UHGV virus genome: UHGV-0278189
Direction: 5' to 3' (one strand)
DNA: 41,032 bases
Origin: a virus
The number at the start of each line of letters is the position of its first letter. The first letter of the stretch is position 1. Shown in pieces: positions 3,462 through 34,836 of the stretch. The notes under the pieces are model-generated. The model did not search any database, had not been told where the DNA came from, and saw only the letters and a list, made by a program, of their open reading frames with translations. The translations under genes and the position numbers were made by a program.

Positions 3462-3490
3462 ACCCGCAAAATATTGCGGGCTTTTTTTTA
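3462..3490. terminator. Hairpin at 3' end of tailspike gene (weak terminator)
   Basis: cccgcaaaatattgcggg with A/T runs on both sides; overlaps tailspike stop codon; T-run is on the + strand side so function on the - strand is uncertain. Confidence 0.4.
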
Positions 3491-6400
3491 ACGTTCTTCC
3501 AGAGACTGAATCCGCTCTTTTATCTTATCCATTTCTCTGCGCTGCCATGCTGCCTCGATATAGAATAAGAGATCAGGTCTGACCCCCCATCTAGATCCTG
3601 CTGGCGTTATTTCAACGCGCTCAATGATGTCTTCCATTACCATCACTGGATTATCATCCTCATCAACAATGATGCTCCCGTCATTATCAGTCAGCGGCAT
3701 TTCCCTTTGGCCAGTAATGACGTCATCATATACTGCGGGATAATCGTCATAGCAAAGAAAGGCATAGCGGCATGTTGTGCTTTCTTCTTCCATGAGTCCG
3801 TGAGAAATAAGAACATCACGAAGTTGCTGCGCGATTACACCATGATGTATCCTCGCCCCTTCTTCCCCCTTTATAGCGACAGCGTTCAGCCATTTATAAG
3901 CGATATACCTGACGTCACCCCAGGCATCCAGCAATGCTTCGTCAGGAGAGACCGGCTCTGTCTTTAATGTTCCGTCACTGGTAACCACAGGATTGGAGCC
4001 AAGATAAACTGTCGAGAACCTGTTTCCCGGACCACCAAGAGCATTTACATTATCAAGATAAGGTTTAACATCTCCGTTCTCAAAAAGATGTTCGAGTGCG
4101 TTATATACCGCGCGACGTGGAGTACTGCTTCCGGAACCATGCAACGTTATCATTGCACCATCTGCTGAAGACGTTGTTTCACCGCCGCTAACGATTAATC
4201 TCTGAGCGGTAACATCATCAGACGGTACTTTCTTCGCAATAATGGCGTAATTACCCTCAAGTTTGACTTCCGCGCGAACTTGTCCTGATGTACCTGCATG
4301 GACAGTCAGTGACTGGACGGCAACATCATCTGTGAAATCAACGGGTACAGGAACCGTCCTCACGCCTGACGTCGACATAAAAGTAGGAAGCGTTCTGTTA
4401 GGAGTGGCTCCGTAGACAAAATCCCTTGAAACAAATTCTTCCTGTTTAATTTTCACCCTGAAACAATACAAATCAGCCGGGTGACCATCGTGAACATAAG
4501 GATATTTTCTGTTGTTATCCCCTATGCTCCATGGGTTTAGAAAGTCTTCCCCACCGAAAATGTAGTACAGCCAGTTGTCTTTGATACAAACTGAACCAAC
4601 ACCAACCGCAGAGTTAACTATTCCGCCCTGATAAATCTGATCAGTAACATTAACCCACTCTACATTATCCAGACTCCACTCATTGACGTTAACTCTGGTC
4701 ATAAATGTTCTTGGATAATTTCCTGCATAACGGTTATCAGGTTCTCCTCCTTCCCACTCACCAAATGCGCGCTCACTGCCAAAAATAATCAGCTCATCGC
4801 CAACTTTGGCAAAAGGAAGGTTTGAGTGATGAACATTATTTGGGAAGCGAAGAGAATTCCATGATGTACCTAAATCAGAGCTTCTGTGCAATGAACTACC
4901 GGGTTGAGTACTTAATGTCCCCCTGGTCGTCAGATACAGAATGCCATCATAATATTTTACACATGGCTCAGATGCATTCGCCTCATATTCTACAGGTATG
5001 CGTCTGCGAACAAAGCTACCAGGAGAACCGAAAGCATCAGAGAAATAGAGTATCCCAAGCTCGCGTGGACCAATATCACCATTATGGTAGCCAACAGCAA
5101 AACTGTTATCGCTAATCGTCGCAAAACTGTGAATCTCAGTAACAGGAGTGCTTCCGTCAACAAAAGAAGGAATAGTTCCAAGACTGGTTTTTCTCCATGG
5201 TGACGAGTGAAATGATGTGCCAAAACTCCAGTATCTACCCTCGTTATTCTGATCCACATCCTGGGTATTTTTCGTCGTAACTGTAAAGGTATTTTTATCA
5301 ATAACAGTAGTCACCGTCATATTCCCGGTAACACCTGTAACACCAGAGTTTGAGAAGTTGACAAAATCACCAGCAAATAATCCGTGATCAGTAATGCGAA
5401 TATAAGCGACTTGCTGATTTGCTGCTTTCGTTATACCACCATAAACGCGAAGGCTGCGACTCATTGGGCGATCCCACAACTCTGCAACCTGCAGTTTATT
5501 TCCGCTCACGGTCCGCGTCTCAATTACAGCAAAAAGGCGATTTCTGACAACCCCCATACTCATGCAGTGATAGTTAACTGTGGGATAGTTTTCATGTAAA
5601 TCTGTAAGCCATTCCGGCGTTGTCCAGGTCTTCCCGTCATCTCCTGAGCGAACCCATGCAACATGGAGGTTATTTACACCATGGCGGTCTCCAGCCATAA
5701 AAGGCGCATAGATGACATTGTCATATACAAACGTTTTATCCTGCGTCCAGGCGTTGTACCACGGTGTATCTGTAATTTTAAATAACTCTCCCTGGATAAA
5801 ATCTTCAGAAGCATAAAAAAGAGGTTGGCCCGGTATTCTCTCAAATAAAAAACGAGCATTTTTAAATCGACTGACATCCGGAAGAGTTGATACTTTAAAA
5901 GTAAGCCCTAATCCGTCAATTTTATAACCTGGAGATGAGGCTTCAAGGCACGCGCTTATTGCAGTGGAATCGTCATTTATACCATCACCAACAGCTCCAA
6001 AATCTTTGGGGCTAATAGCATCACGCATTTTATCCTGGAACGTTCGGTACACAGCCCCAGAACCATACTGAATAAACCAACCAAAACCACCAACAACCCC
6101 GGAGATTGCAGCATCGACATAATTACGCATTGAGCGATTATTTACAGCGTCCTGCTCAAATGATGGATCTGCAAGGTTAGAAATTTTGTTTTGCTTTGCA
6201 TCGTAATATTTTGCAAGCAAAGATGGTTTCATCAATGCACGTCTGAACCACCCAAAACATTGCTGGATCAGCATCGTCAGATAGTCAAAGGCATCTTCAT
6301 GCACCTCGGGGAAAAATTTTCCCTGATTACGAAGATCAGTCTCCTGCACCACATCAAGCACACGATCTATCGTAATTCGCCATCCAGCAGCAAGCGGCGA

Positions 6401-6607
6401 CGGAAGAACAACAGAACCGCCACTATAAGTGCCCGCCCCAGTTACCGTATAACCGGTATCCAGTACTAGTTCTGTTACGTTACCGTTAAGGTCAGACACC
6501 TGAACAACCAGGTCGGATTTTTTGAAAATACGGAAGGTATACGGAAATGATGTCGTAACGCCGTTACCAGTGTATTCGTTGTGGTCAACTTCGGTTGAGA
6601 CCGTCAT
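3488..6607 (-). CDS. Tailspike with Asp-box (BNR) beta-propeller-like region and C-terminal intramolecular chaperone-like domain; possible endosialidase
   Basis: 1039 aa; N-terminus MTVSTEVDHNEYTGNGVTTSFPYTFRIFKKSDLVVQV looks like a conserved particle-binding domain; two Asp-boxes (SGDDGKTW, SSDLGTSW); last ~160 aa resemble the self-cleaving chaperone domain of endosialidases and some tail fibers, with a Ser-x4-Lys pattern (TSDGTLK); GGAG RBS. Confidence 0.7.
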   Translation of the reverse strand: MTVSTEVDHNEYTGNGVTTSFPYTFRIFKKSDLVVQVSDLNGNVTELVLDTGYTVTGAGTYSGGSVVLPSPLAAGWRITIDRVLDVVQETDLRNQGKFFPEVHEDAFDYLTMLIQQCFGWFRRALMKPSLLAKYYDAKQNKISNLADPSFEQDAVNNRSMRNYVDAAISGVVGGFGWFIQYGSGAVYRTFQDKMRDAISPKDFGAVGDGINDDSTAISACLEASSPGYKIDGLGLTFKVSTLPDVSRFKNARFLFERIPGQPLFYASEDFIQGELFKITDTPWYNAWTQDKTFVYDNVIYAPFMAGDRHGVNNLHVAWVRSGDDGKTWTTPEWLTDLHENYPTVNYHCMSMGVVRNRLFAVIETRTVSGNKLQVAELWDRPMSRSLRVYGGITKAANQQVAYIRITDHGLFAGDFVNFSNSGVTGVTGNMTVTTVIDKNTFTVTTKNTQDVDQNNEGRYWSFGTSFHSSPWRKTSLGTIPSFVDGSTPVTEIHSFATISDNSFAVGYHNGDIGPRELGILYFSDAFGSPGSFVRRRIPVEYEANASEPCVKYYDGILYLTTRGTLSTQPGSSLHRSSDLGTSWNSLRFPNNVHHSNLPFAKVGDELIIFGSERAFGEWEGGEPDNRYAGNYPRTFMTRVNVNEWSLDNVEWVNVTDQIYQGGIVNSAVGVGSVCIKDNWLYYIFGGEDFLNPWSIGDNNRKYPYVHDGHPADLYCFRVKIKQEEFVSRDFVYGATPNRTLPTFMSTSGVRTVPVPVDFTDDVAVQSLTVHAGTSGQVRAEVKLEGNYAIIAKKVPSDDVTAQRLIVSGGETTSSADGAMITLHGSGSSTPRRAVYNALEHLFENGDVKPYLDNVNALGGPGNRFSTVYLGSNPVVTSDGTLKTEPVSPDEALLDAWGDVRYIAYKWLNAVAIKGEEGARIHHGVIAQQLRDVLISHGLMEEESTTCRYAFLCYDDYPAVYDDVITGQREMPLTDNDGSIIVDEDDNPVMVMEDIIERVEITPAGSRWGVRPDLLFYIEAAWQRREMDKIKERIQSLEER

Positions 6608-6710: not shown

Positions 6711-6727
6711 ATTACCTTTCGGGTAAT
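6711..6727. promoter_or_regulatory. Operator-like palindrome TTACC-N5-GGTAA (copy 1)
   Basis: aTTACCtttcgGGTAAt between divergent tailspike and 6803 gene. Confidence 0.6.
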
Positions 6728-6802: not shown

Positions 6803-7060
6803 ATGCAGCAGTATCACTATCCACTGGAAGACGGATTTACCGAAAGGATTCACACGCCGGGAGGCGTCAGATCACTGGTGGAGGGATCGCACTTGATGAA
6901 ATTACTCCGGGATCTCGATAAGGATGGATTTAATGTCGATGGCCCACTTGCCGAACTGACTGCACTGATTAACTACGTCACCAGCTCACAGATGTCTATG
7001 CAGGATCTGCAAACACATCTCGACTATTGTGCCGAACAATTACGAAAACAAACCACATAA
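6803..7060 (+). CDS. Small protein paralogous to the C-terminal domain of the antirepressor
   Basis: 85 aa from ATG 6803 (GGAGAA RBS at 6791-6796; ORF track starts at TTG 6785); aligns by eye with the C-terminus of the 8206-8898 product (shared LM.LL, DG, AELT, QTH..Y). Confidence 0.55.
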   Translation: MQQYHYPLEDGFTERIHTPGGVRSLVEGSHLMKLLRDLDKDGFNVDGPLAELTALINYVTSSQMSMQDLQTHLDYCAEQLRKQTT

Positions 7061-7066
7061 AGAAAA

Positions 7067-7082
7067 GGCCGCTCTAGCGGCC
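7067..7082. terminator. Bidirectional terminator between convergent genes
   Basis: GGCCGC-tcta-GCGGCC hairpin with A-rich and T-rich flanks; overlaps stop of 7082-7810 gene. Confidence 0.6.
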
Positions 7083-7810
7083 TATCGTTTCGCTTTGTGC
7101 TCGTCCCAGCACGTTTTGCACCATGCCATTAAGCCGTCCGCATTTTGATTATTAGGGTAAAAGCTAGTTCGTTTTCTGCGGACATTACAAATTGGGCACC
7201 ACTTCATATGGCGTGTATTCTTTGGGCCATCGAGACACCTTGCACACCACTTAGTCAATCCATCTGGATTTTTTGACGATTTCCTGAATTTTTCATATGG
7301 AAGGTTTATTCTGCATCGCAAGCACTGCTTGCTACCACTTGAAACTCTGTTAGCTGATTCTTCTTTTGGCGGCGATACAGAAGGTATTCTTGCTGGCTCT
7401 GATACTGCCTGAGGTGCTTTTTTAGATGACTGAGACGATATGTCATCACCAGGGAATCTTCCATGATATGCCGGACGCGTTGACACTCCGGGTGGAAGCT
7501 CAGCTGTAAACGGCTTTGGCTGAATCAGTTGCCTCTCTTTTGCTAACTCCTGCTGTTTATAATATGTCTGGATTACCGCGCTATCATAAGCAGGAGGTAC
7601 GGAAATATTAGGCGCATTATCTCCCGTTTTTTGAAACTGAGTGGAGGTGTGTTCTATCACCTGTGTACGATTAATCGTTATCTCCCCATCTTCAGTCTTT
7701 ATCGTTTTGTTATGATTAACGACCGTACGATCAGAGATCTTAGTCTTGTTCTGGTTGATAACGTAAATAATCACCGCAACCACACCAACAACTACCCAGA
7801 AAACTTCCAT
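7082..7810 (-). CDS. Single-pass membrane protein with C-terminal tandem CxxC zinc-ribbon motifs (function unknown)
   Basis: 242 aa; N-terminal TM helix (VFWVVVGVVAVIIYVI); C-terminus has four CxxC motifs (CLRC, CARC, CPIC, CKTC) in two ribbon-like pairs; GAGGA RBS; operator-like site 20 bp upstream. Confidence 0.6.
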   Translation of the reverse strand: MEVFWVVVGVVAVIIYVINQNKTKISDRTVVNHNKTIKTEDGEITINRTQVIEHTSTQFQKTGDNAPNISVPPAYDSAVIQTYYKQQELAKERQLIQPKPFTAELPPGVSTRPAYHGRFPGDDISSQSSKKAPQAVSEPARIPSVSPPKEESANRVSSGSKQCLRCRINLPYEKFRKSSKNPDGLTKWCARCLDGPKNTRHMKWCPICNVRRKRTSFYPNNQNADGLMAWCKTCWDEHKAKR

Positions 7811-7829
7811 TGCCTTTCCTCACAATAAC

Positions 7830-7846
7830 ATTACCTTAAAGGTAAT
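7830..7846. promoter_or_regulatory. Operator-like palindrome TTACC-N5-GGTAA (copy 2)
   Basis: aTTACCttaaaGGTAAt, 20 bp upstream of the 7810 start codon and in the antirepressor leader. Confidence 0.6.
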
Positions 7847-7922
7847 ATCTTGCTTTCAGGTGATCAAGCGTTAAACGCAATCAACCAAATACGGTTGATT
7901 TTAATATTTCTTCGCGTTTATC

Positions 7923-7939
7923 ATTACCTTTGCGGTAAA
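7923..7939. promoter_or_regulatory. Operator-like palindrome TTACC-N5-GGTAA (copy 3)
   Basis: aTTACCtttgcGGTAAa in the 395-bp leader upstream of the antirepressor gene. Confidence 0.6.
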
Positions 7940-8205
7940 TTTACATCGCACTCCTCTTGTGCCATAGTAATCGGGCACTGGCAAAATCCAGTGCCGGGAT
8001 TGGTCTCCCGGATTACTACAGAGGCACATATGCCGCATAAGCGGTTTTTTTATGTGTAAAGCGCACCTATTCTATGGTGGGCTGTGTGGGGGCACCGAAA
8101 GGTGCGCCGGGTTCCTTTGTAGCCGGTAAGACCAACTCTGCACAGTTCACCACCATCTGATTGGTCTCAGCGGTGGTGATTAACCTAACTACAAAGGTGA
8201 TCGCC

Positions 8206-8898
8206 ATGAATACCAAACCTTCCATCTTTTCCTTTGAGTCATCCTGCCAGATCCGTATGTTCATGATTGACGGAGAACCTTGGTTTGTCACCAAAGATGT
8301 GTGCAATGCTTTGAATATTGATGTTACACAAGCGAGAAAACTTGATAAAAAAGGCTGGAACAAAAAGGGGCTGTATTCAATACAGACCCCTGGTGGAATA
8401 CAAGAACTATCCATCGTTTCAGAATCAGGTCTCTACATCCTTATTCTGCGTTGCAAAGAGGCAATGACTGAGGGAACGAGAGCATTCAGATTTCTTGAAT
8501 GGGTTACAGGTGAGGTTCTTCCTCAGATCCGCCGCACCGGAAGTTACATTAAAAACTCGCTCCCGCAGGAAGAACGCATAAAGATGGTTGCCGACCAGGT
8601 AGCCAACGCCACAGCATCAGCAGTGATGCAGGCAATGAAGATAGAGAACAAAACCTACAGTGCCCCACTGAAGCCCGGCTACCGCAGCCTGATTCATTCT
8701 CCGTCTGGTGTTCTCGGCCTGACGGAGAACTCATTGCTTATGAATCTGCTAAACCAGTTACAGGAAGACGGGCACGACGTATCGGGCGCGGCGGCGGAGC
8801 TGACCACCATGTTCTGCTACATCGTCGGTGTGAGCAAATGCCTGCGTGATATCCAGACCCACGCGGAGTACATCAACGACAAGGCAGGGTTCTTCTGA
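8206..8898 (+). CDS. Antirepressor (Bro-N-like N-terminus, Ant/KilAC-like C-terminus)
   Basis: 230 aa from ATG 8206 with AAAGGTGA RBS (ORF track starts at TTG 8161); N-terminal segment FMIDGEPWFVTKDVCNAL typical of Bro-N/antirepressor proteins. Confidence 0.7.
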   Translation: MNTKPSIFSFESSCQIRMFMIDGEPWFVTKDVCNALNIDVTQARKLDKKGWNKKGLYSIQTPGGIQELSIVSESGLYILILRCKEAMTEGTRAFRFLEWVTGEVLPQIRRTGSYIKNSLPQEERIKMVADQVANATASAVMQAMKIENKTYSAPLKPGYRSLIHSPSGVLGLTENSLLMNLLNQLQEDGHDVSGAAAELTTMFCYIVGVSKCLRDIQTHAEYINDKAGFF

Positions 8899-26246: not shown

Positions 26247-26263
26247 ATTACCTTTCAGGTAAG
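26247..26263. promoter_or_regulatory. Operator-like palindrome TTACC-N5-GGTAA (copy 5)
   Basis: aTTACCtttcaGGTAAg in non-coding region between head operon and tRNA; TTGACA at 26226-26231 nearby. Confidence 0.6.
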
Positions 26264-32723: not shown

Positions 32724-33543
32724 CCCACACCCCTTCTATCCAGTCAGTGTTATTCCAGTCAAGCTCATCGCTTTTCCCGACGTTTTTTGATTTTCCCCTG
32801 ATATGATTTACGTGCCTGGCGAATTTTTGTTCCCACTGAACCTGCGTGAACACTTTGCCCTCAGCCATCCAGTAATCCCGGAATGCAGCAAGTTCAGCAG
32901 GTGTAAATTCCGGTTCCGGCAGGGCCGTTCCCCACAGCGCAGCACGCCGTCGAAAATCCGGCGACGGATGCCAGCCATCGGTCATCGGAAATTTCCCAAT
33001 AGGTTCACTCAGGCCATCCAGAAATGCAGGTTCTGCCACCTGCAACGGCGTACCGTTCGCTTCACTGGTCGGAGCACCCTCGCGCACGTGCGCTATGTGT
33101 GGGGTTTTATATATATCTTCCTCTTCCTCTTCCTCTGGTAACTCCTTTTGTAACGCTGTTGGCGTTACTTTTTGCGTTACTCGTTTTCGATGCTCTGCCA
33201 CTCTTCTATTCGTAAGTGCACGTTTTTTCGATGATTCTCCATTATGTCGCTCAAAGTTTGGAAGAATTAGTTTGCCGTCATGATAAGCAAGCCATCCGAC
33301 GCTAATGAGGGCGTCAGCAAATCCTGTAATAAAAGCGAGTCTATCAAGTACTCCTTTTGTAACGCTGCCAGCGTTACCGTCTATTGTTTGCTGGTCAGCC
33401 CATGCCCATATACGAACCAGCTTTCCAAGAACAGCATCTGGATCAATACCCAGAATTTCTGCTATCTGAAAAATTTCAGGTTTATCAGGAGTGATAACTT
33501 CAACCTTAATCCAGCTGCTTGCCATAGGTTTCCCCTCTTGCAC
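32695..33543 (-). CDS. Replication initiator / replisome organiser (O-like position) with poly-Glu linker
   Basis: 282 aa; sits directly upstream of P-like gene; contains EEEEEE linker and two DNA-level repeat copies inside the gene; C-terminal region may be DnaT-like. Confidence 0.6.
   Translation of the reverse strand: MQEGKPMASSWIKVEVITPDKPEIFQIAEILGIDPDAVLGKLVRIWAWADQQTIDGNAGSVTKGVLDRLAFITGFADALISVGWLAYHDGKLILPNFERHNGESSKKRALTNRRVAEHRKRVTQKVTPTALQKELPEEEEEEDIYKTPHIAHVREGAPTSEANGTPLQVAEPAFLDGLSEPIGKFPMTDGWHPSPDFRRRAALWGTALPEPEFTPAELAAFRDYWMAEGKVFTQVQWEQKFARHVNHIRGKSKNVGKSDELDWNNTDWIEGVWDEINSRTSQ
33141..33180. repeat. Iteron-like repeat copy 1 within O-like gene
   Basis: actccttttGTAACGCtgttgGCGTTACtttttGCGTTAC next to AT-rich atatatat and polypurine tract. 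Confidence 0.5.
33350..33377. repeat. Iteron-like repeat copy 2 within O-like gene (perfect 9-1-9 palindrome)
   Basis: actccttttGTAACGCTGcCAGCGTTAC; shares an 18-nt block (actccttttgtaacgctg) with copy 1. Confidence 0.5.
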
Positions 33544-33718
33544 TCTTTAGTGCACAAGCAAATTCATTACGATGGCGGTTGGCGCTATTCATTGCACATT
33601 CAACACATGTTCCGTTCAGAACATACCTTTCAGAGAGATGGCCGTGACGGCACCGCTTTCCTGTGAAATAGCGATTTAACCCGGCTTTTGCGGCCTCCAT
33701 TCTGGTTACTATCTTCAA
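33506..33718 (-). CDS. Small zinc-finger-like protein between cro-like and O-like genes
   Basis: 70 aa; CRHGH...CVEC motif; occupies cII-like position; overlaps O-like start. Confidence 0.45.
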   Translation of the reverse strand: MKIVTRMEAAKAGLNRYFTGKRCRHGHLSERYVLNGTCVECAMNSANRHRNEFACALKSARGETYGKQLD

Positions 33719-34251: not shown

Positions 34252-34836
34252 ATGAAAAGTATCCAGGACGTCCGCAGGCAAAATCTCAACGACTTGATCG
34301 ACCGTGAATTCAATGGTGTTCAGACGCGGATGGCTGAAAAACTTGGAACTCAGGCAAATCTGGTAAACCGCTGGGCTCTTGGCAAGAAGGTTATCGGCGA
34401 CCAGGTTGCACGAAAAATTGAAGCTGCCGCCAATAAACCCCGTAACTGGCTTGATATCGATCGCTCGCTTTCTCAGGAAGGTTTTCAGCCTGTCGGCCCA
34501 AGCGACATTGGCCAGCTGGCGGCTCACAACCTGGAACGCTGGATGAGCGAAAGCCGCGACCTTTCAACACAGGGAAAACTTCACCGCGCATCCGGCGTAG
34601 CCCAGGTGACAATCAGCCGCCTATTAAACAATGAGGTCAGCGTTTCCATTTCCACCCTGGAGAATGTTGCATCCGCATTCGGGCGTCACGGCTATGAATT
34701 ACTGATTCACCCGCACGACCCTGCGACCATCAACTATGATCGCTCGCGCTACGCATTGTTACCCGAAACCGAGAAAGCAAAGATCGAAAGTTACATTGAA
34801 TTTGTCATCAACCAGAACGAAAAAAACAAACAATAA
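34252..34836 (+). CDS. CI-like repressor with HTH motifs and no LexA-like protease domain
   Basis: 194 aa; two HTH-like segments (TQANLVNRWALGKKVIGDQVARKIE and ASGVAQVTISRLLNNEVSVSISTLENVASAFG); divergent from cro-like gene; followed by strong terminator. Confidence 0.6.
   Translation: MKSIQDVRRQNLNDLIDREFNGVQTRMAEKLGTQANLVNRWALGKKVIGDQVARKIEAAANKPRNWLDIDRSLSQEGFQPVGPSDIGQLAAHNLERWMSESRDLSTQGKLHRASGVAQVTISRLLNNEVSVSISTLENVASAFGRHGYELLIHPHDPATINYDRSRYALLPETEKAKIESYIEFVINQNEKNKQ

What the first reader, a model, noticed from the sequence alone, without database searches (positions are those of the whole stretch)
7082..7810. Membrane-anchored protein with tandem cytoplasmic zinc ribbons next to an operator site
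A single N-terminal TM helix, a low-complexity linker and two CxxC...CxxC ribbon-like modules; the gene has its own terminator and an operator-like site 20 bp upstream of its start. The architecture fits a lysogen-expressed exclusion or abortive-infection factor, but I recognise no family.
Basis: partly seen in the sequence, partly recalled or inferred. Interest (0 to 1): 0.5.

Follow-up and report, generated by a model that had tools for sequence, protein, structure and literature searches.

The report
Membrane-tethered zinc-finger prophage accessory protein
This is a real, selected accessory gene of an epsilon15-like E. coli prophage encoding an inner-membrane protein with two cytoplasmic zinc fingers; its uncharacterised family usually sits beside phage repressor genes, so it is a candidate phage-exclusion factor, but no function has been tested.

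Summary
Window 7082-7810(-) encodes a 242-aa protein with an N-terminal TM helix, a conserved juxtamembrane hairpin, a fast-evolving linker and two C-x2-C-x22-C-x2-C modules. It has its own terminator (7066-7083) and a perfect 17-bp palindrome (7830-7846) 19 nt upstream of the ATG.

"No family" is superseded. The protein matches PHROG 6762 (unknown function) over its full length. The C-terminus is a non-catalytic Stc1-type tandem zinc finger, the module repeated in viral HNH/EndoVII nucleases.

The gene is a moron. phiV10 has an empty site, and about 25% of E. coli epsilon15-like prophages carry it.

The palindrome is the prophage's own CI/Cro operator (15 sites against 0.7 expected, including OR and OL). 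It contains the likely -10 (TTGATC-17-TACCTT). This layout recurs in divergent homologs and changes with the resident phage's operator type. The window copy is therefore probably repressor-controlled rather than freely lysogen-expressed.

Across the wider family, however, the gene lies directly downstream of CI-type repressor genes (the lambda rexAB position) in at least 9 lineages. The architecture resembles the membrane-anchored, nucleic-acid-binding Abi proteins AbiP and PdpSau.

The best reading is a phage-conflict (exclusion/Abi-like) factor. That function is inferred, not shown.

The parts
7082..7810 (-). CDS, 242 aa (stop codon 7082-7084): TM + hairpin + linker + tandem zinc finger
   Evidence: The ORF is listed. 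It matches PHROG 6762 at E 1.7e-149 over its full length. All 54 E. coli-type loci carry an intact ORF, with overall dN/dS 0.26.
7751..7804 (-). N-terminal transmembrane helix (residues 3-20), predicted N-out/C-in signal anchor
   Evidence: AF2 models helix 3-20 at pLDDT 84-90. Mean identity across homologs is 73%. The ME...NQNKTK flanks follow the positive-inside rule, so the orientation is an inference.
7637..7747 (-). Conserved juxtamembrane segment (residues 22-58), predicted beta-hairpin, unknown role
   Evidence: The motif T.I....TIKTxDGE..I.R is conserved in alignments A1 and A5. AF2 predicts strands 26-39 and 42-55, but at low pLDDT.
7337..7636 (-). Variable low-complexity linker (residues 59-158)
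   Evidence: Mean identity is 17%, length is variable and dN/dS is 0.70. pLDDT is below 50.
7232..7330 (-). Zinc module 1 (residues 161-193; C163, C166, C189, C192)
   Evidence: The Cys are invariant. It matches Pfam Stc1 at residues 161-193, below threshold. The family profile aligns it to the PacI N-terminal Zn motif.
7103..7204 (-). Zinc module 2 (residues 203-236; C205, C208, C231, C234)
   Evidence: The Cys are invariant. The PHROG endonuclease VII, HNH and Lar-like families match only this module.
7056..7083 (-). Intrinsic terminator of the gene (7-bp stem with 6 GC pairs, 4-nt loop, TTTCTTT tail), overlapping the stop codon
   Evidence: Found by the terminator scan and visible in the sequence.
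7813..7821 (-). Shine-Dalgarno sequence GAGGAAAGG
   Evidence: Seen in the sequence. It is nearly invariant among 33 distinct upstream alleles.
7830..7846 (.). CI/Cro-type operator ATTACC-N5-GGTAAT, perfect palindrome arms
   Evidence: The site and its genome-wide enrichment are. The same motif occurs at OR (34134, 34182) and OL (34894, 34956). It is almost invariant in E. coli alleles. Equivalent operators lie upstream of divergent homologs.
7839..7867 (-). Inferred sigma-70 promoter: -35 TTGATC (7867-7862), 17-nt spacer, -10 TACCTT (7844-7839) inside the operator
   Evidence: The consensus scan did not call it, because the -10 matches only 3 of 6 positions. It is inferred from a conserved layout in six independent upstream groups: TTGACC-17-TACCTT, TTGATC-17-TACCTT, TTGACA-16-TACCTT, TTGAAC-17-TACCTT, TTGAAC-17-TACCAT and TTGAAC-17-TAACCT.
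7061..7920 (.). Extent of the moron insertion relative to phiV10-type phages (terminator, gene, promoter/operator, and the new -35 region of the ant promoter)
   Evidence: phiV10 has 41 bp here instead of about 860 bp. 133 E. coli genomes carry the gene against 531 that carry the flanking backbone.

Best explanation
The gene is a horizontally mobile accessory (moron) gene of an epsilon15/phiV10-like prophage.

Its product is a single-pass inner-membrane protein. A 2-residue N-terminus faces out, followed by one TM helix and a conserved juxtamembrane hairpin. A flexible linker of about 100 residues then carries a strongly basic, non-catalytic Stc1-type tandem Cys4 zinc finger into the cytoplasm.

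Transcription starts at its own promoter, whose -10 lies inside a consensus operator of the resident phage's CI/Cro repressor, and stops at its own terminator. Expression is therefore wired into the immunity circuit. In this phage it is probably shut down by CI in the stable lysogen and released on infection or induction. In many other phages the homolog is simply co-transcribed with cI.

The most likely role is in phage-versus-phage conflict. The tethered zinc fingers would bind nucleic acid (or a protein) of an incoming or competing phage at the inner face of the membrane. This would either block productive genome entry or early replication (superinfection exclusion), or trigger the TM/hairpin part to damage the membrane (abortive infection), as in AbiP, PdpSau and Rex.

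Shown: gene reality, architecture, fold class, moron status, operator identity and family context.
Inferred: topology, promoter assignment and sign of regulation, ligand, and the exclusion function.

The stated confidence (0.45) applies to the functional claim. The structural and regulatory parts are much firmer.
For: Real, constrained gene:
- The ORF is intact in all 54 E. coli-type loci, with 38 alleles.
- dN/dS is 0.06 for the Zn domain, 0.27 for the N-terminus and 0.70 for the linker.

Architecture and fold:
- AF2 gives pLDDT 84-96 for the TM helix and Zn domain.
- The top Foldseek PDB hit is the Stc1 tandem zinc finger 2LUY (E 7.5e-3, probability 0.92), followed by Hpy99I.
- 45 BFVD hits at E<=1e-3 are mostly HNH/EndoVII/Stc1-domain proteins.
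- The family profile finds 2827 representative proteins. Of 67 soluble relatives, 45 match Pfam Stc1, and many carry HNH or Endonuclease_7 domains.
- The Zn domain is basic: pI 9.9 here and a mean of 9.8 across 35 members.

Moron status:
- phiV10 has an empty site.
- The same slot holds other cargo in EC.W1-9 and in a Pectobacterium prophage.
- 133 genomes carry the gene against 531 carrying the backbone.
- Homologs sit antisense within structural operons of siphoviruses and other podoviruses.

Regulation:
- The operator motif is enriched about 20-fold and is present at OR and OL.
- The same -35/-10-in-operator layout occurs upstream of homologs that share only 44-63% protein identity.
- Providencia prophages use a different palindrome (TTAACC-N5-GGTTAA). 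It recurs elsewhere in those prophages and also sits on this gene's promoter there.
- The promoter/operator/SD region is nearly invariant, while the DNA just upstream varies.

Immunity linkage:
- The gene lies directly downstream of CI-type repressor genes (gaps 15-63 bp) in at least 9 lineages and abuts them convergently in 3 more.
- 9 of 10 of those neighbours match the HTH and/or Peptidase_S24 families typical of CI-type repressors.

Precedent: PdpSau and AbiP are membrane-anchored Abi proteins with basic, nucleic-acid-binding cytoplasmic domains (PMC10127798 and its reference 50).
Against: - No functional data of any kind exist, and no literature mentions the family.
- There is no hit to any PADLOC defence model and only a non-significant PHROG Sie-like hit (E 0.89).
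- The founding Stc1 domain is a protein-protein adaptor (PMC2875855), so DNA binding is not established. A basic domain could also bind acidic lipids.
- The two regulatory contexts point in different directions: CI-repressed here, co-transcribed with cI elsewhere.
- A suicide-type Abi is awkward for a gene that the phage itself would express early.
- Known Sie proteins act on the periplasmic side or on receptors, not from the cytoplasmic face.
- The promoter is inferred. Its -10 is weak (TAnnnT only) and no TSS data exist.
- The alternative cargo in the same slot shows no recognisable defence genes.
Confidence: 0.45

Rival explanations
1. It is a lysis-lysogeny or induction modulator. The membrane-tethered zinc fingers act as a protein-binding adaptor, like Stc1. 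They would sequester a regulator of the immunity circuit at the membrane (for example the Bro-N antirepressor, its small C-terminal-domain paralog gp19-like, Cro, or a host protease) and so tune establishment or induction.
For: - The Stc1 tandem zinc finger is a protein-protein adaptor (PMC2875855; top PDB fold hit).
- The gene is divergent from the c4-RNA/ant operon here and next to ant genes in several homologs.
- It is placed in or beside the cI operon in at least 12 lineages.
- It is under CI/Cro operator control like ant, the gp19-like gene and the 9039 gene.
- Expression both early after infection and from the cI operon overlaps in the establishment phase.
Against: - Many carriers have no ant nearby, or hold the gene inside structural operons.
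- It is dispensable for about 75% of E. coli epsilon15-like prophages with the same immunity backbone, which is unusual for a core regulator.
- Most relatives of the module are fused to nucleases, which favours nucleic-acid binding.
Confidence: 0.17
2. It is an early lytic helper for the phage itself. The protein would tether the phage's own (or the host's) DNA to the inner membrane, to assist genome internalisation, replication or packaging, or to take over the host by blocking nucleoid segregation or division.
For: - The CI/Cro operator over the -10 predicts early, transient expression in this phage.
- The domain is basic and probably binds DNA.
- The gene lies next to the ejection/internal-protein genes in several podovirus contexts.
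Against: - Co-transcription with cI in at least 9 lineages is not where lytic helpers sit.
- The gene is optional within one phage type.
- It was found only in temperate phages and prophages among isolated phages.
Confidence: 0.13
3. It is a decayed or domesticated homing-endonuclease fragment with little or no current function. On this view it was captured next to a TM-like hydrophobic leader and is maintained by hitch-hiking.
For: The zinc modules are those of HNH/EndoVII homing nucleases, and the catalytic part is missing.
Against: - There is strong purifying selection on the Zn domain and the TM segment.
- The full-length architecture is conserved across Gammaproteobacteria at 25-40% identity.
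- The promoter/operator is conserved.
Confidence: 0.03

Closest known systems
AbiP (Lactococcus) and PdpSau (S. aureus prophage) membrane-anchored abortive-infection proteins
   Same: Both have a single N-terminal TM anchor plus a positively charged cytoplasmic domain that binds, or is predicted to bind, nucleic acid. Both are single-gene, mobile-element-encoded accessory loci. PdpSau depolarises the membrane on infection (PMC10127798).
   Different: There is no sequence or fold relationship. Those proteins use an OB-fold-like domain, whereas this one uses Stc1-type Cys4 zinc fingers on a long disordered linker. No PADLOC hit was found. The phenotype is untested here. The hosts are Gram-negative.
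Lambda RexA/RexB (and other cargo at the 'rex position' downstream of cI)
   Same: Family members occupy exactly this position, co-directional with and 15-63 bp after a CI-type repressor gene. The concept of a cytoplasmic sensor plus a membrane component is similar.
   Different: There is no homology. This is one polypeptide with one TM helix instead of the RexA plus 4-TM RexB pair. In the window itself the gene is not in the cI operon but on its own CI-operator-controlled promoter, about 26 kb from cI.
Stc1 tandem zinc-finger domain (Pfam PF12898; PDB 2LUY) and the N-terminal Zn motif of HNH enzymes PacI/Hpy99I
   Same: It shares the tandem C-x2-C...C-x2-C treble-clef-like modules. 2LUY is the best PDB fold hit. 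PacI residues 2-41 align to module 1. 45 of 67 profile relatives match Stc1.
   Different: The window protein scores below the Pfam gathering threshold (21 against 24.8 bits). It has no His-Me catalytic residues and no nuclease domain. It is membrane-tethered. Stc1 itself is a eukaryotic protein-protein adaptor (PMC2875855).
Phage P1 C1-controlled operators and the immI (c4-icd-ant) region
   Same: Repressor operators are scattered over the genome in front of accessory and early genes. A C4 antisense RNA and its targets lie upstream of ant, right next to the gene (Rfam C4 78.6 bits, isrK 74.7 bits).
   Different: The operator here is a 17-bp palindrome of a lambda-like HTH CI, not the asymmetric P1 C1 site. 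P1 has no homolog of this gene at that place. The statement about P1 rests on my own knowledge.

Membership tests
PHROG 6762 (unknown function) | Full-length profile match | tested here: met
   E 1.7e-149, residues 1-242 against profile positions 1-242 of 242.
Stc1 domain (Pfam PF12898) | Score at or above the Pfam gathering threshold | tested here: not met
   21.0 bits against a cut-off of 24.8, E 5e-4, with two stretches.
Stc1 domain (Pfam PF12898) | Tandem Cys4 zinc modules with the Stc1 fold; transitive profile homology | tested here: met
   2LUY is the top Foldseek PDB hit, aligned over the whole domain with probability 0.92. 45 of 67 soluble relatives found with the family profile match Stc1, with a best E of 3e-18. 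BFVD hits are annotated 'Stc1 domain'.
HNH / His-Me finger nucleases (incl. Endonuclease VII) | Catalytic beta-beta-alpha-Me motif with conserved His (and Asn/His metal ligands) | tested here: not met
   There is no Pfam HNH or Endonuclease_7 match. PHROG nuclease families align only to their N-terminal zinc module. No His falls within either CxxC...CxxC module, and the nearly invariant H201 lies in the inter-module spacer.
Moron (autonomous accessory cassette in a phage genome) | Own promoter and terminator; presence/absence polymorphism at a precise site in otherwise collinear phages | tested here: met
   The terminator is and the conserved promoter/operator. phiV10 has an empty site. The gene is in 133 genomes against 531 with the backbone. 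It is transcribed opposite to its neighbours in 6 phage types.
AbiP/PdpSau-like membrane-anchored nucleic-acid-binding Abi | N-terminal TM anchor plus a basic cytoplasmic domain | tested here: met
   The TM helix spans residues 3-20. The Zn domain has pI 9.9 with 20 K+R against 6 D+E.
AbiP/PdpSau-like membrane-anchored nucleic-acid-binding Abi | Nucleic-acid binding and an abortive-infection phenotype | not testable with these tools
   This needs EMSA and phage challenge experiments.
Known defence/Abi/Sie sequence families | Homology to a PADLOC model or a PHROG Sie family | tested here: not met
   PADLOC gives 0 hits. PHROG 8545 'Sie-like' scores E 0.89, and only over the TM region.
Rex-position cargo (gene co-transcribed with cI) | Directly downstream of, and co-directional with, the CI repressor gene | tested here: not met
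   This is not met in the window. There, cI (34252-34836) is followed by a terminator and OL/PL, and the gene lies 26 kb away. It is met for homologs in at least 9 other lineages.
Zinc-binding anti-sigma factors (ZAS) | N-terminal cytoplasmic HxxxCxxC domain followed by a TM helix | tested here: not met
   The domain order is reversed (TM first), there is no HxxxCxxC motif and there is no Pfam hit.

The most novel reading that the evidence does not exclude
The TM-hairpin-linker-tandem-zinc-finger proteins are a new, widespread family of single-chain phage-exclusion proteins. They occupy the rex position in temperate phages of Gammaproteobacteria. A zinc-finger module borrowed from HNH homing nucleases would serve as a cytoplasmic sensor or clamp for foreign phage DNA at the inner face of the membrane. 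The conserved TM/hairpin would act as the effector, either blocking genome entry from the inside (a mode without precedent among Sie proteins) or forming a Rex-like depolarising pore. In epsilon15-like phages its expression would be set directly by the CI/Cro operator.
Probability: 0.25. Interest if true: 0.75.

Novelty: new variant of a known kind. Interest (0 to 1): 0.55.

Why it matters
If the exclusion reading holds, this would add a compact, single-gene, easily transferable defence family. It is present in about 2.5% of complete E. coli genomes (133 of 5426) and in many marine and clinical Gammaproteobacteria (Acinetobacter, Aeromonas, Haemophilus, Serratia, Providencia). It would affect phage-therapy host ranges, for example K1-specific and O157 typing phages.

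It would also show a new use of the Stc1/HNH-associated zinc finger as a membrane-tethered sensor.

Independently of function, the locus is a clean example of a moron whose promoter has been fitted with the resident phage's own operator. The operator changes with the phage's immunity specificity. This makes the question "are morons really expressed in lysogens?" directly testable here.

Tried and rejected
Searches that gave nothing:
- PADLOC and NCBIfam scans of the protein and its neighbours found nothing useful.
- A single-sequence PDB search gave only a RING-finger noise hit.
- A literature search for the RefSeq/GenBank accessions and the PHROG id found no papers.
- A literature search for 'Stc1 domain' with phage found nothing relevant.
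- The vB_EcoP_ZX5 paper confirms repressor and antirepressor roles in this phage group but says nothing on operators or on this gene.
- The alternative cargo in the same slot (EC.W1-9 genes, Pectobacterium 244-aa gene) was scanned with Pfam and PADLOC in the hope of defence guilt-by-association. There were no significant assignments.
- The genome-contig scan returned only 13 loci because the pattern was narrow.

Hypotheses rejected:
- An active HNH nuclease, because no catalytic residues are present.
- A cleavable signal peptide or periplasmic domain. There is no basic n-region and no AxA site, and Cys4 zinc sites need the cytoplasm.
- A ZAS anti-sigma factor, because the topology is wrong.
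- The idea that the gene's promoter copies the cI (PRM) promoter. No TTGAYM-17-TACCTT arrangement precedes cI.
- The inverted repeat at 7879-7900 as a second operator. Its right arm varies among alleles.
- The overlapping + strand ORFs (7145-7276, 7631-7828), which are shadows of the real frame.
Full report
**Setting.** The window is an epsilon15/phiV10-like (Uetakevirus-type) prophage of E. coli, integrated next to yfgI/guaA.
- It carries a K1 endosialidase tailspike (3488-6607, -), a lysis cassette, ejection-protein genes and a lambda-like immunity region at about 33.8-35.0 kb.
- The finding lies between a small conserved gene (gp19-like, 6803-7060, +) and the antirepressor operon (ant, 8206-8898, +).

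**Observation.**
- The ORF at 7082-7810(-) encodes 242 aa.
- Residues 3-20 are a hydrophobic helix, with AF2 pLDDT 84-90.
- Residues 59-158 are disordered, variable in length and almost unconstrained: 17% identity among homologs and dN/dS 0.70.
- The C-terminus has eight Cys in two C-x2-C-x22-C-x2-C modules. They are invariant in close and distant relatives, modelled at pLDDT 90-96, and under strong purifying selection with dN/dS 0.06.
- An intrinsic terminator overlaps the stop codon.
- A perfect 17-bp palindrome (7830-7846) lies 19 nt upstream of the ATG.
- The ORF is intact in all 54 E. coli-type viral loci examined, which carry 38 alleles.

**What the protein is.** "No family" does not hold.
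- The protein matches PHROG 6762 (unknown function) end to end.
- Word-based search finds 33 clusters, all named ones from Enterobacterales and all 'hypothetical'.
- A profile of the zinc domain finds 2827 representative proteins.
- About 45 of the best 150 share the whole architecture: ME + TM, NN(K/R), a conserved T.I....TI.T.dGE..I.R hairpin, a variable linker and two zinc modules, in 170-240 aa.
- The rest are soluble proteins with 3-12 copies of the module. Of 67 of these, 45 match Pfam Stc1 (PF12898), and HNH, HNH_5, Endonuclease_7, KilA-N, Bro-N or helicase domains co-occur.
- The window protein itself is just below the Stc1 threshold at 21 against 24.8 bits.
- Module 1 superposes on the N-terminal zinc motif of PacI, with 34 residues at 1.1 A and a profile E of 0.07.
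- 45 viral models match at E<=1e-3, mostly HNH/EndoVII/'Stc1 domain' proteins.
- No catalytic His-Me residues are conserved, so the domain is a binding module and not a nuclease.
- It is strongly basic: pI 9.9 here and a mean of 9.8 in 35 members.
- The acidic 2-residue N-terminus, the K/R-rich C-flank and the Cys4 sites argue for an N-out/C-in topology. This is an inference.

**It is a moron.**
- phiV10 and several relatives are collinear on both sides but have 41 bp where the window has about 860 bp (7061-7920). That insert holds the terminator, the gene and its promoter/operator.
- EC.W1-9 and a Pectobacterium prophage carry unrelated genes in the same slot.
- Among 5426 complete E. coli genomes, 531 have the flanking backbone and 133 have the gene.
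- Homologs also occur elsewhere, always with their own upstream region and usually antisense to their neighbours. These places include other slots of epsilon15-like prophages, the tail operon of a lambda-like siphovirus, a second podovirus type (Yersinia YeP4-6 and relatives) and a small integrative element.

**The operator and the promoter.**
- The palindrome is the resident phage's repressor operator. TTACC-N5-GGTAA (up to 1 mismatch) occurs 15 times against 0.73 expected.
- Sites lie between cro and cI (34134, 34182) and just after cI in front of the leftward early operon (34894, 34956). There they flank recognisable promoters: PL is TTGACA-16-TAATTA followed by the operator.
- Other sites sit at the promoters of the gp19-like gene, the c4/ant operon and the 9039 gene.
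- Upstream of the target gene, a -35 TTGATC (7867-7862) lies 17 nt from TACCTT (7844-7839), which is the left half of the operator.
- The consensus scanner did not call this promoter.
- The same layout recurs upstream of homologs that share only 44-63% protein identity and have otherwise unrelated flanks. Examples are TTGACC-17-TACCTT (Enterobacter/Citrobacter/Salmonella group), TTGATC-17-TACCTT, TTGACA-16-TACCTT (Pectobacterium), TTGAAC-17-TACCTT (Serratia) and TTGAAC-17-TACCAT.
- In Providencia prophages the operator type is different (TTAACC-N5-GGTTAA). It recurs 3-4 times in those prophages, which have no epsilon15-type sites, and the homolog's promoter carries that type as TTGAAC-17-TAACCT.
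- Among 33 distinct E. coli upstream alleles, the stretch from -35 to the SD is almost invariant, while the DNA just upstream is about 15 times more variable.
- I therefore regard repressor control as well supported. Because the operator covers -12 to +5, the predicted sign is repression. No TSS or expression data exist, and occupancy of an isolated site in a lysogen cannot be computed.

**Family context.** The wider family points the other way on timing.
- In Aeromonas phage phiARM81mr, the homolog follows the annotated CI repressor gene by 18 bp on the same strand.
- The same arrangement (gaps 15-63 bp) is seen in at least eight further lineages, including Acinetobacter, Marinobacterium, Neptunomonas and several IMG/VR prophage groups.
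- Three more lineages have the gene abutting a cI-like gene convergently.
- 9 of 10 of these neighbours match the HTH and/or Peptidase_S24 families expected of CI-type repressors.
- This is the position of lambda rexAB, so those homologs are almost certainly expressed with cI.
- Other homologs sit beside antirepressors or toxin-antitoxin pairs such as HicAB and a HigBA-like pair.
- Among isolated phages, homologs were found only in temperate ones.

**Mechanism.** Combining these points, the protein is best read as an immunity-circuit-linked accessory factor acting in phage-phage conflict.
- A basic zinc-finger module of the kind that decorates phage nucleases is held at the inner face of the membrane on a long flexible tether.
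- The TM/juxtamembrane part is itself conserved (73% and 58% identity), more than a passive anchor would need.
- Two experimentally studied proteins have the same logic with different folds. [quoted passage not shown] S. aureus prophage PdpSau has a TM helix plus a basic cytoplasmic domain, and causes membrane depolarisation and an early block of phage DNA replication (PMC10127798).
- Because this phage would express the gene early in its own cycle, a non-suicidal exclusion (interference with incoming DNA) fits both regulatory contexts better than altruistic suicide. I cannot separate the two.
- Sub-confidences: architecture and fold about 0.9; moron status about 0.95; CI/Cro control about 0.8; repression in the stable lysogen about 0.65; a conflict/exclusion function about 0.45.

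**Rivals.**
- A protein-sequestering modulator of the lysis-lysogeny circuit. The founding Stc1 domain is a protein adaptor (PMC2875855), and ant is next door.
- An early lytic DNA-tethering helper.
- A functionless nuclease remnant. This is excluded by selection and conservation.

**Verdict.**
- The gene belongs to an undescribed but widespread family whose domain is a known kind (an Stc1/HNH-associated zinc finger).
- Its likely role has known analogues (AbiP, PdpSau, Rex).
- It is a good experimental lead rather than a demonstrated new system.

Noticed in passing
window 7962-8157 (+), upstream of ant (8206-8898): This is a P1 immI-like antisense control region. Rfam C4 antisense RNA lies at 8070-8157 (78.6 bits), isrK at 7975-8051 (74.7 bits), and the c4 a1b1 targets at 7962-8014 (just below gathering). 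They are preceded by a CI operator at 7923-7939. The antirepressor is therefore under both CI and antisense-RNA control.
   Followed up: partly
window 6803-7060 (+) versus 8206-8898 (+): The small conserved 'gp19-like' protein (85 aa) is a paralog of the C-terminal domain of the Bro-N antirepressor: 42% identity over 74 aa, E 7e-16. It may be a competitor or modulator of Ant. It has its own CI operator at 6711-6727.
   Followed up: partly
window-wide: 6712, 7831, 7924, 8965, 26248, 29417, 31833, 31895, 34182, 34894, 34956 (perfect sites): Eleven perfect and four one-mismatch TTACC-N5-GGTAA operators are scattered over the prophage, far beyond OR and OL. This is a P1-like 'repressor regulon' of accessory and early promoters. 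The sites at 26248 and 29399/29417 lie among packaging genes and were not explained.
   Followed up: partly
slot between gp19-like gene and ant: window 7061-7920; L002 5462-5502; L391 1985-2900; L007 5268-6002: This slot is a cargo hotspot. It is empty in phiV10, holds two unrelated small genes in EC.W1-9, and holds an unrelated 244-aa gene in a Pectobacterium prophage. None has a recognised function.
   Followed up: yes
L067-L073, about 60-75 bp upstream of the homolog's ATG: A perfect 14-bp palindrome, TGTGACATGTCACA, sits just upstream of the -35 in the Enterobacter/Citrobacter/Salmonella group only. Its half-sites look CRP-like but the spacing is wrong. Its binding protein is unknown.
   Followed up: no
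L172 6654-7307, L246, L254 (Marinobacterium-type prophages): Here the family gene overlaps by 34 bp a downstream gene for a secreted SNase-like nuclease (PADLOC candidate 'SNc+LTD', E 6e-8). This may be a two-gene module downstream of cI.
   Followed up: no
window 33506-33718 (-): A 70-aa ORF between the replication genes and cro has a C-x-H...C-x2-C zinc-ribbon-like motif (RCRHGH...GTCVEC). It is another small zinc protein in the early region.
   Followed up: no
window 7879-7900: The inverted repeat AATCAACC-N6-GGTTGATT lies between the divergent promoters and overlaps the ant -35. Its right arm varies among E. coli alleles, so it is probably not a protein site.
   Followed up: partly
window 34252-34836 (+): The CI-like repressor (194 aa, HTH_3) has no Peptidase_S24 domain. 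This fits antirepressor-driven rather than RecA-cleavage induction (compare PMC9782041). By contrast, eight of the ten tested cI-like neighbours of family members in other lineages do carry S24.
   Followed up: partly
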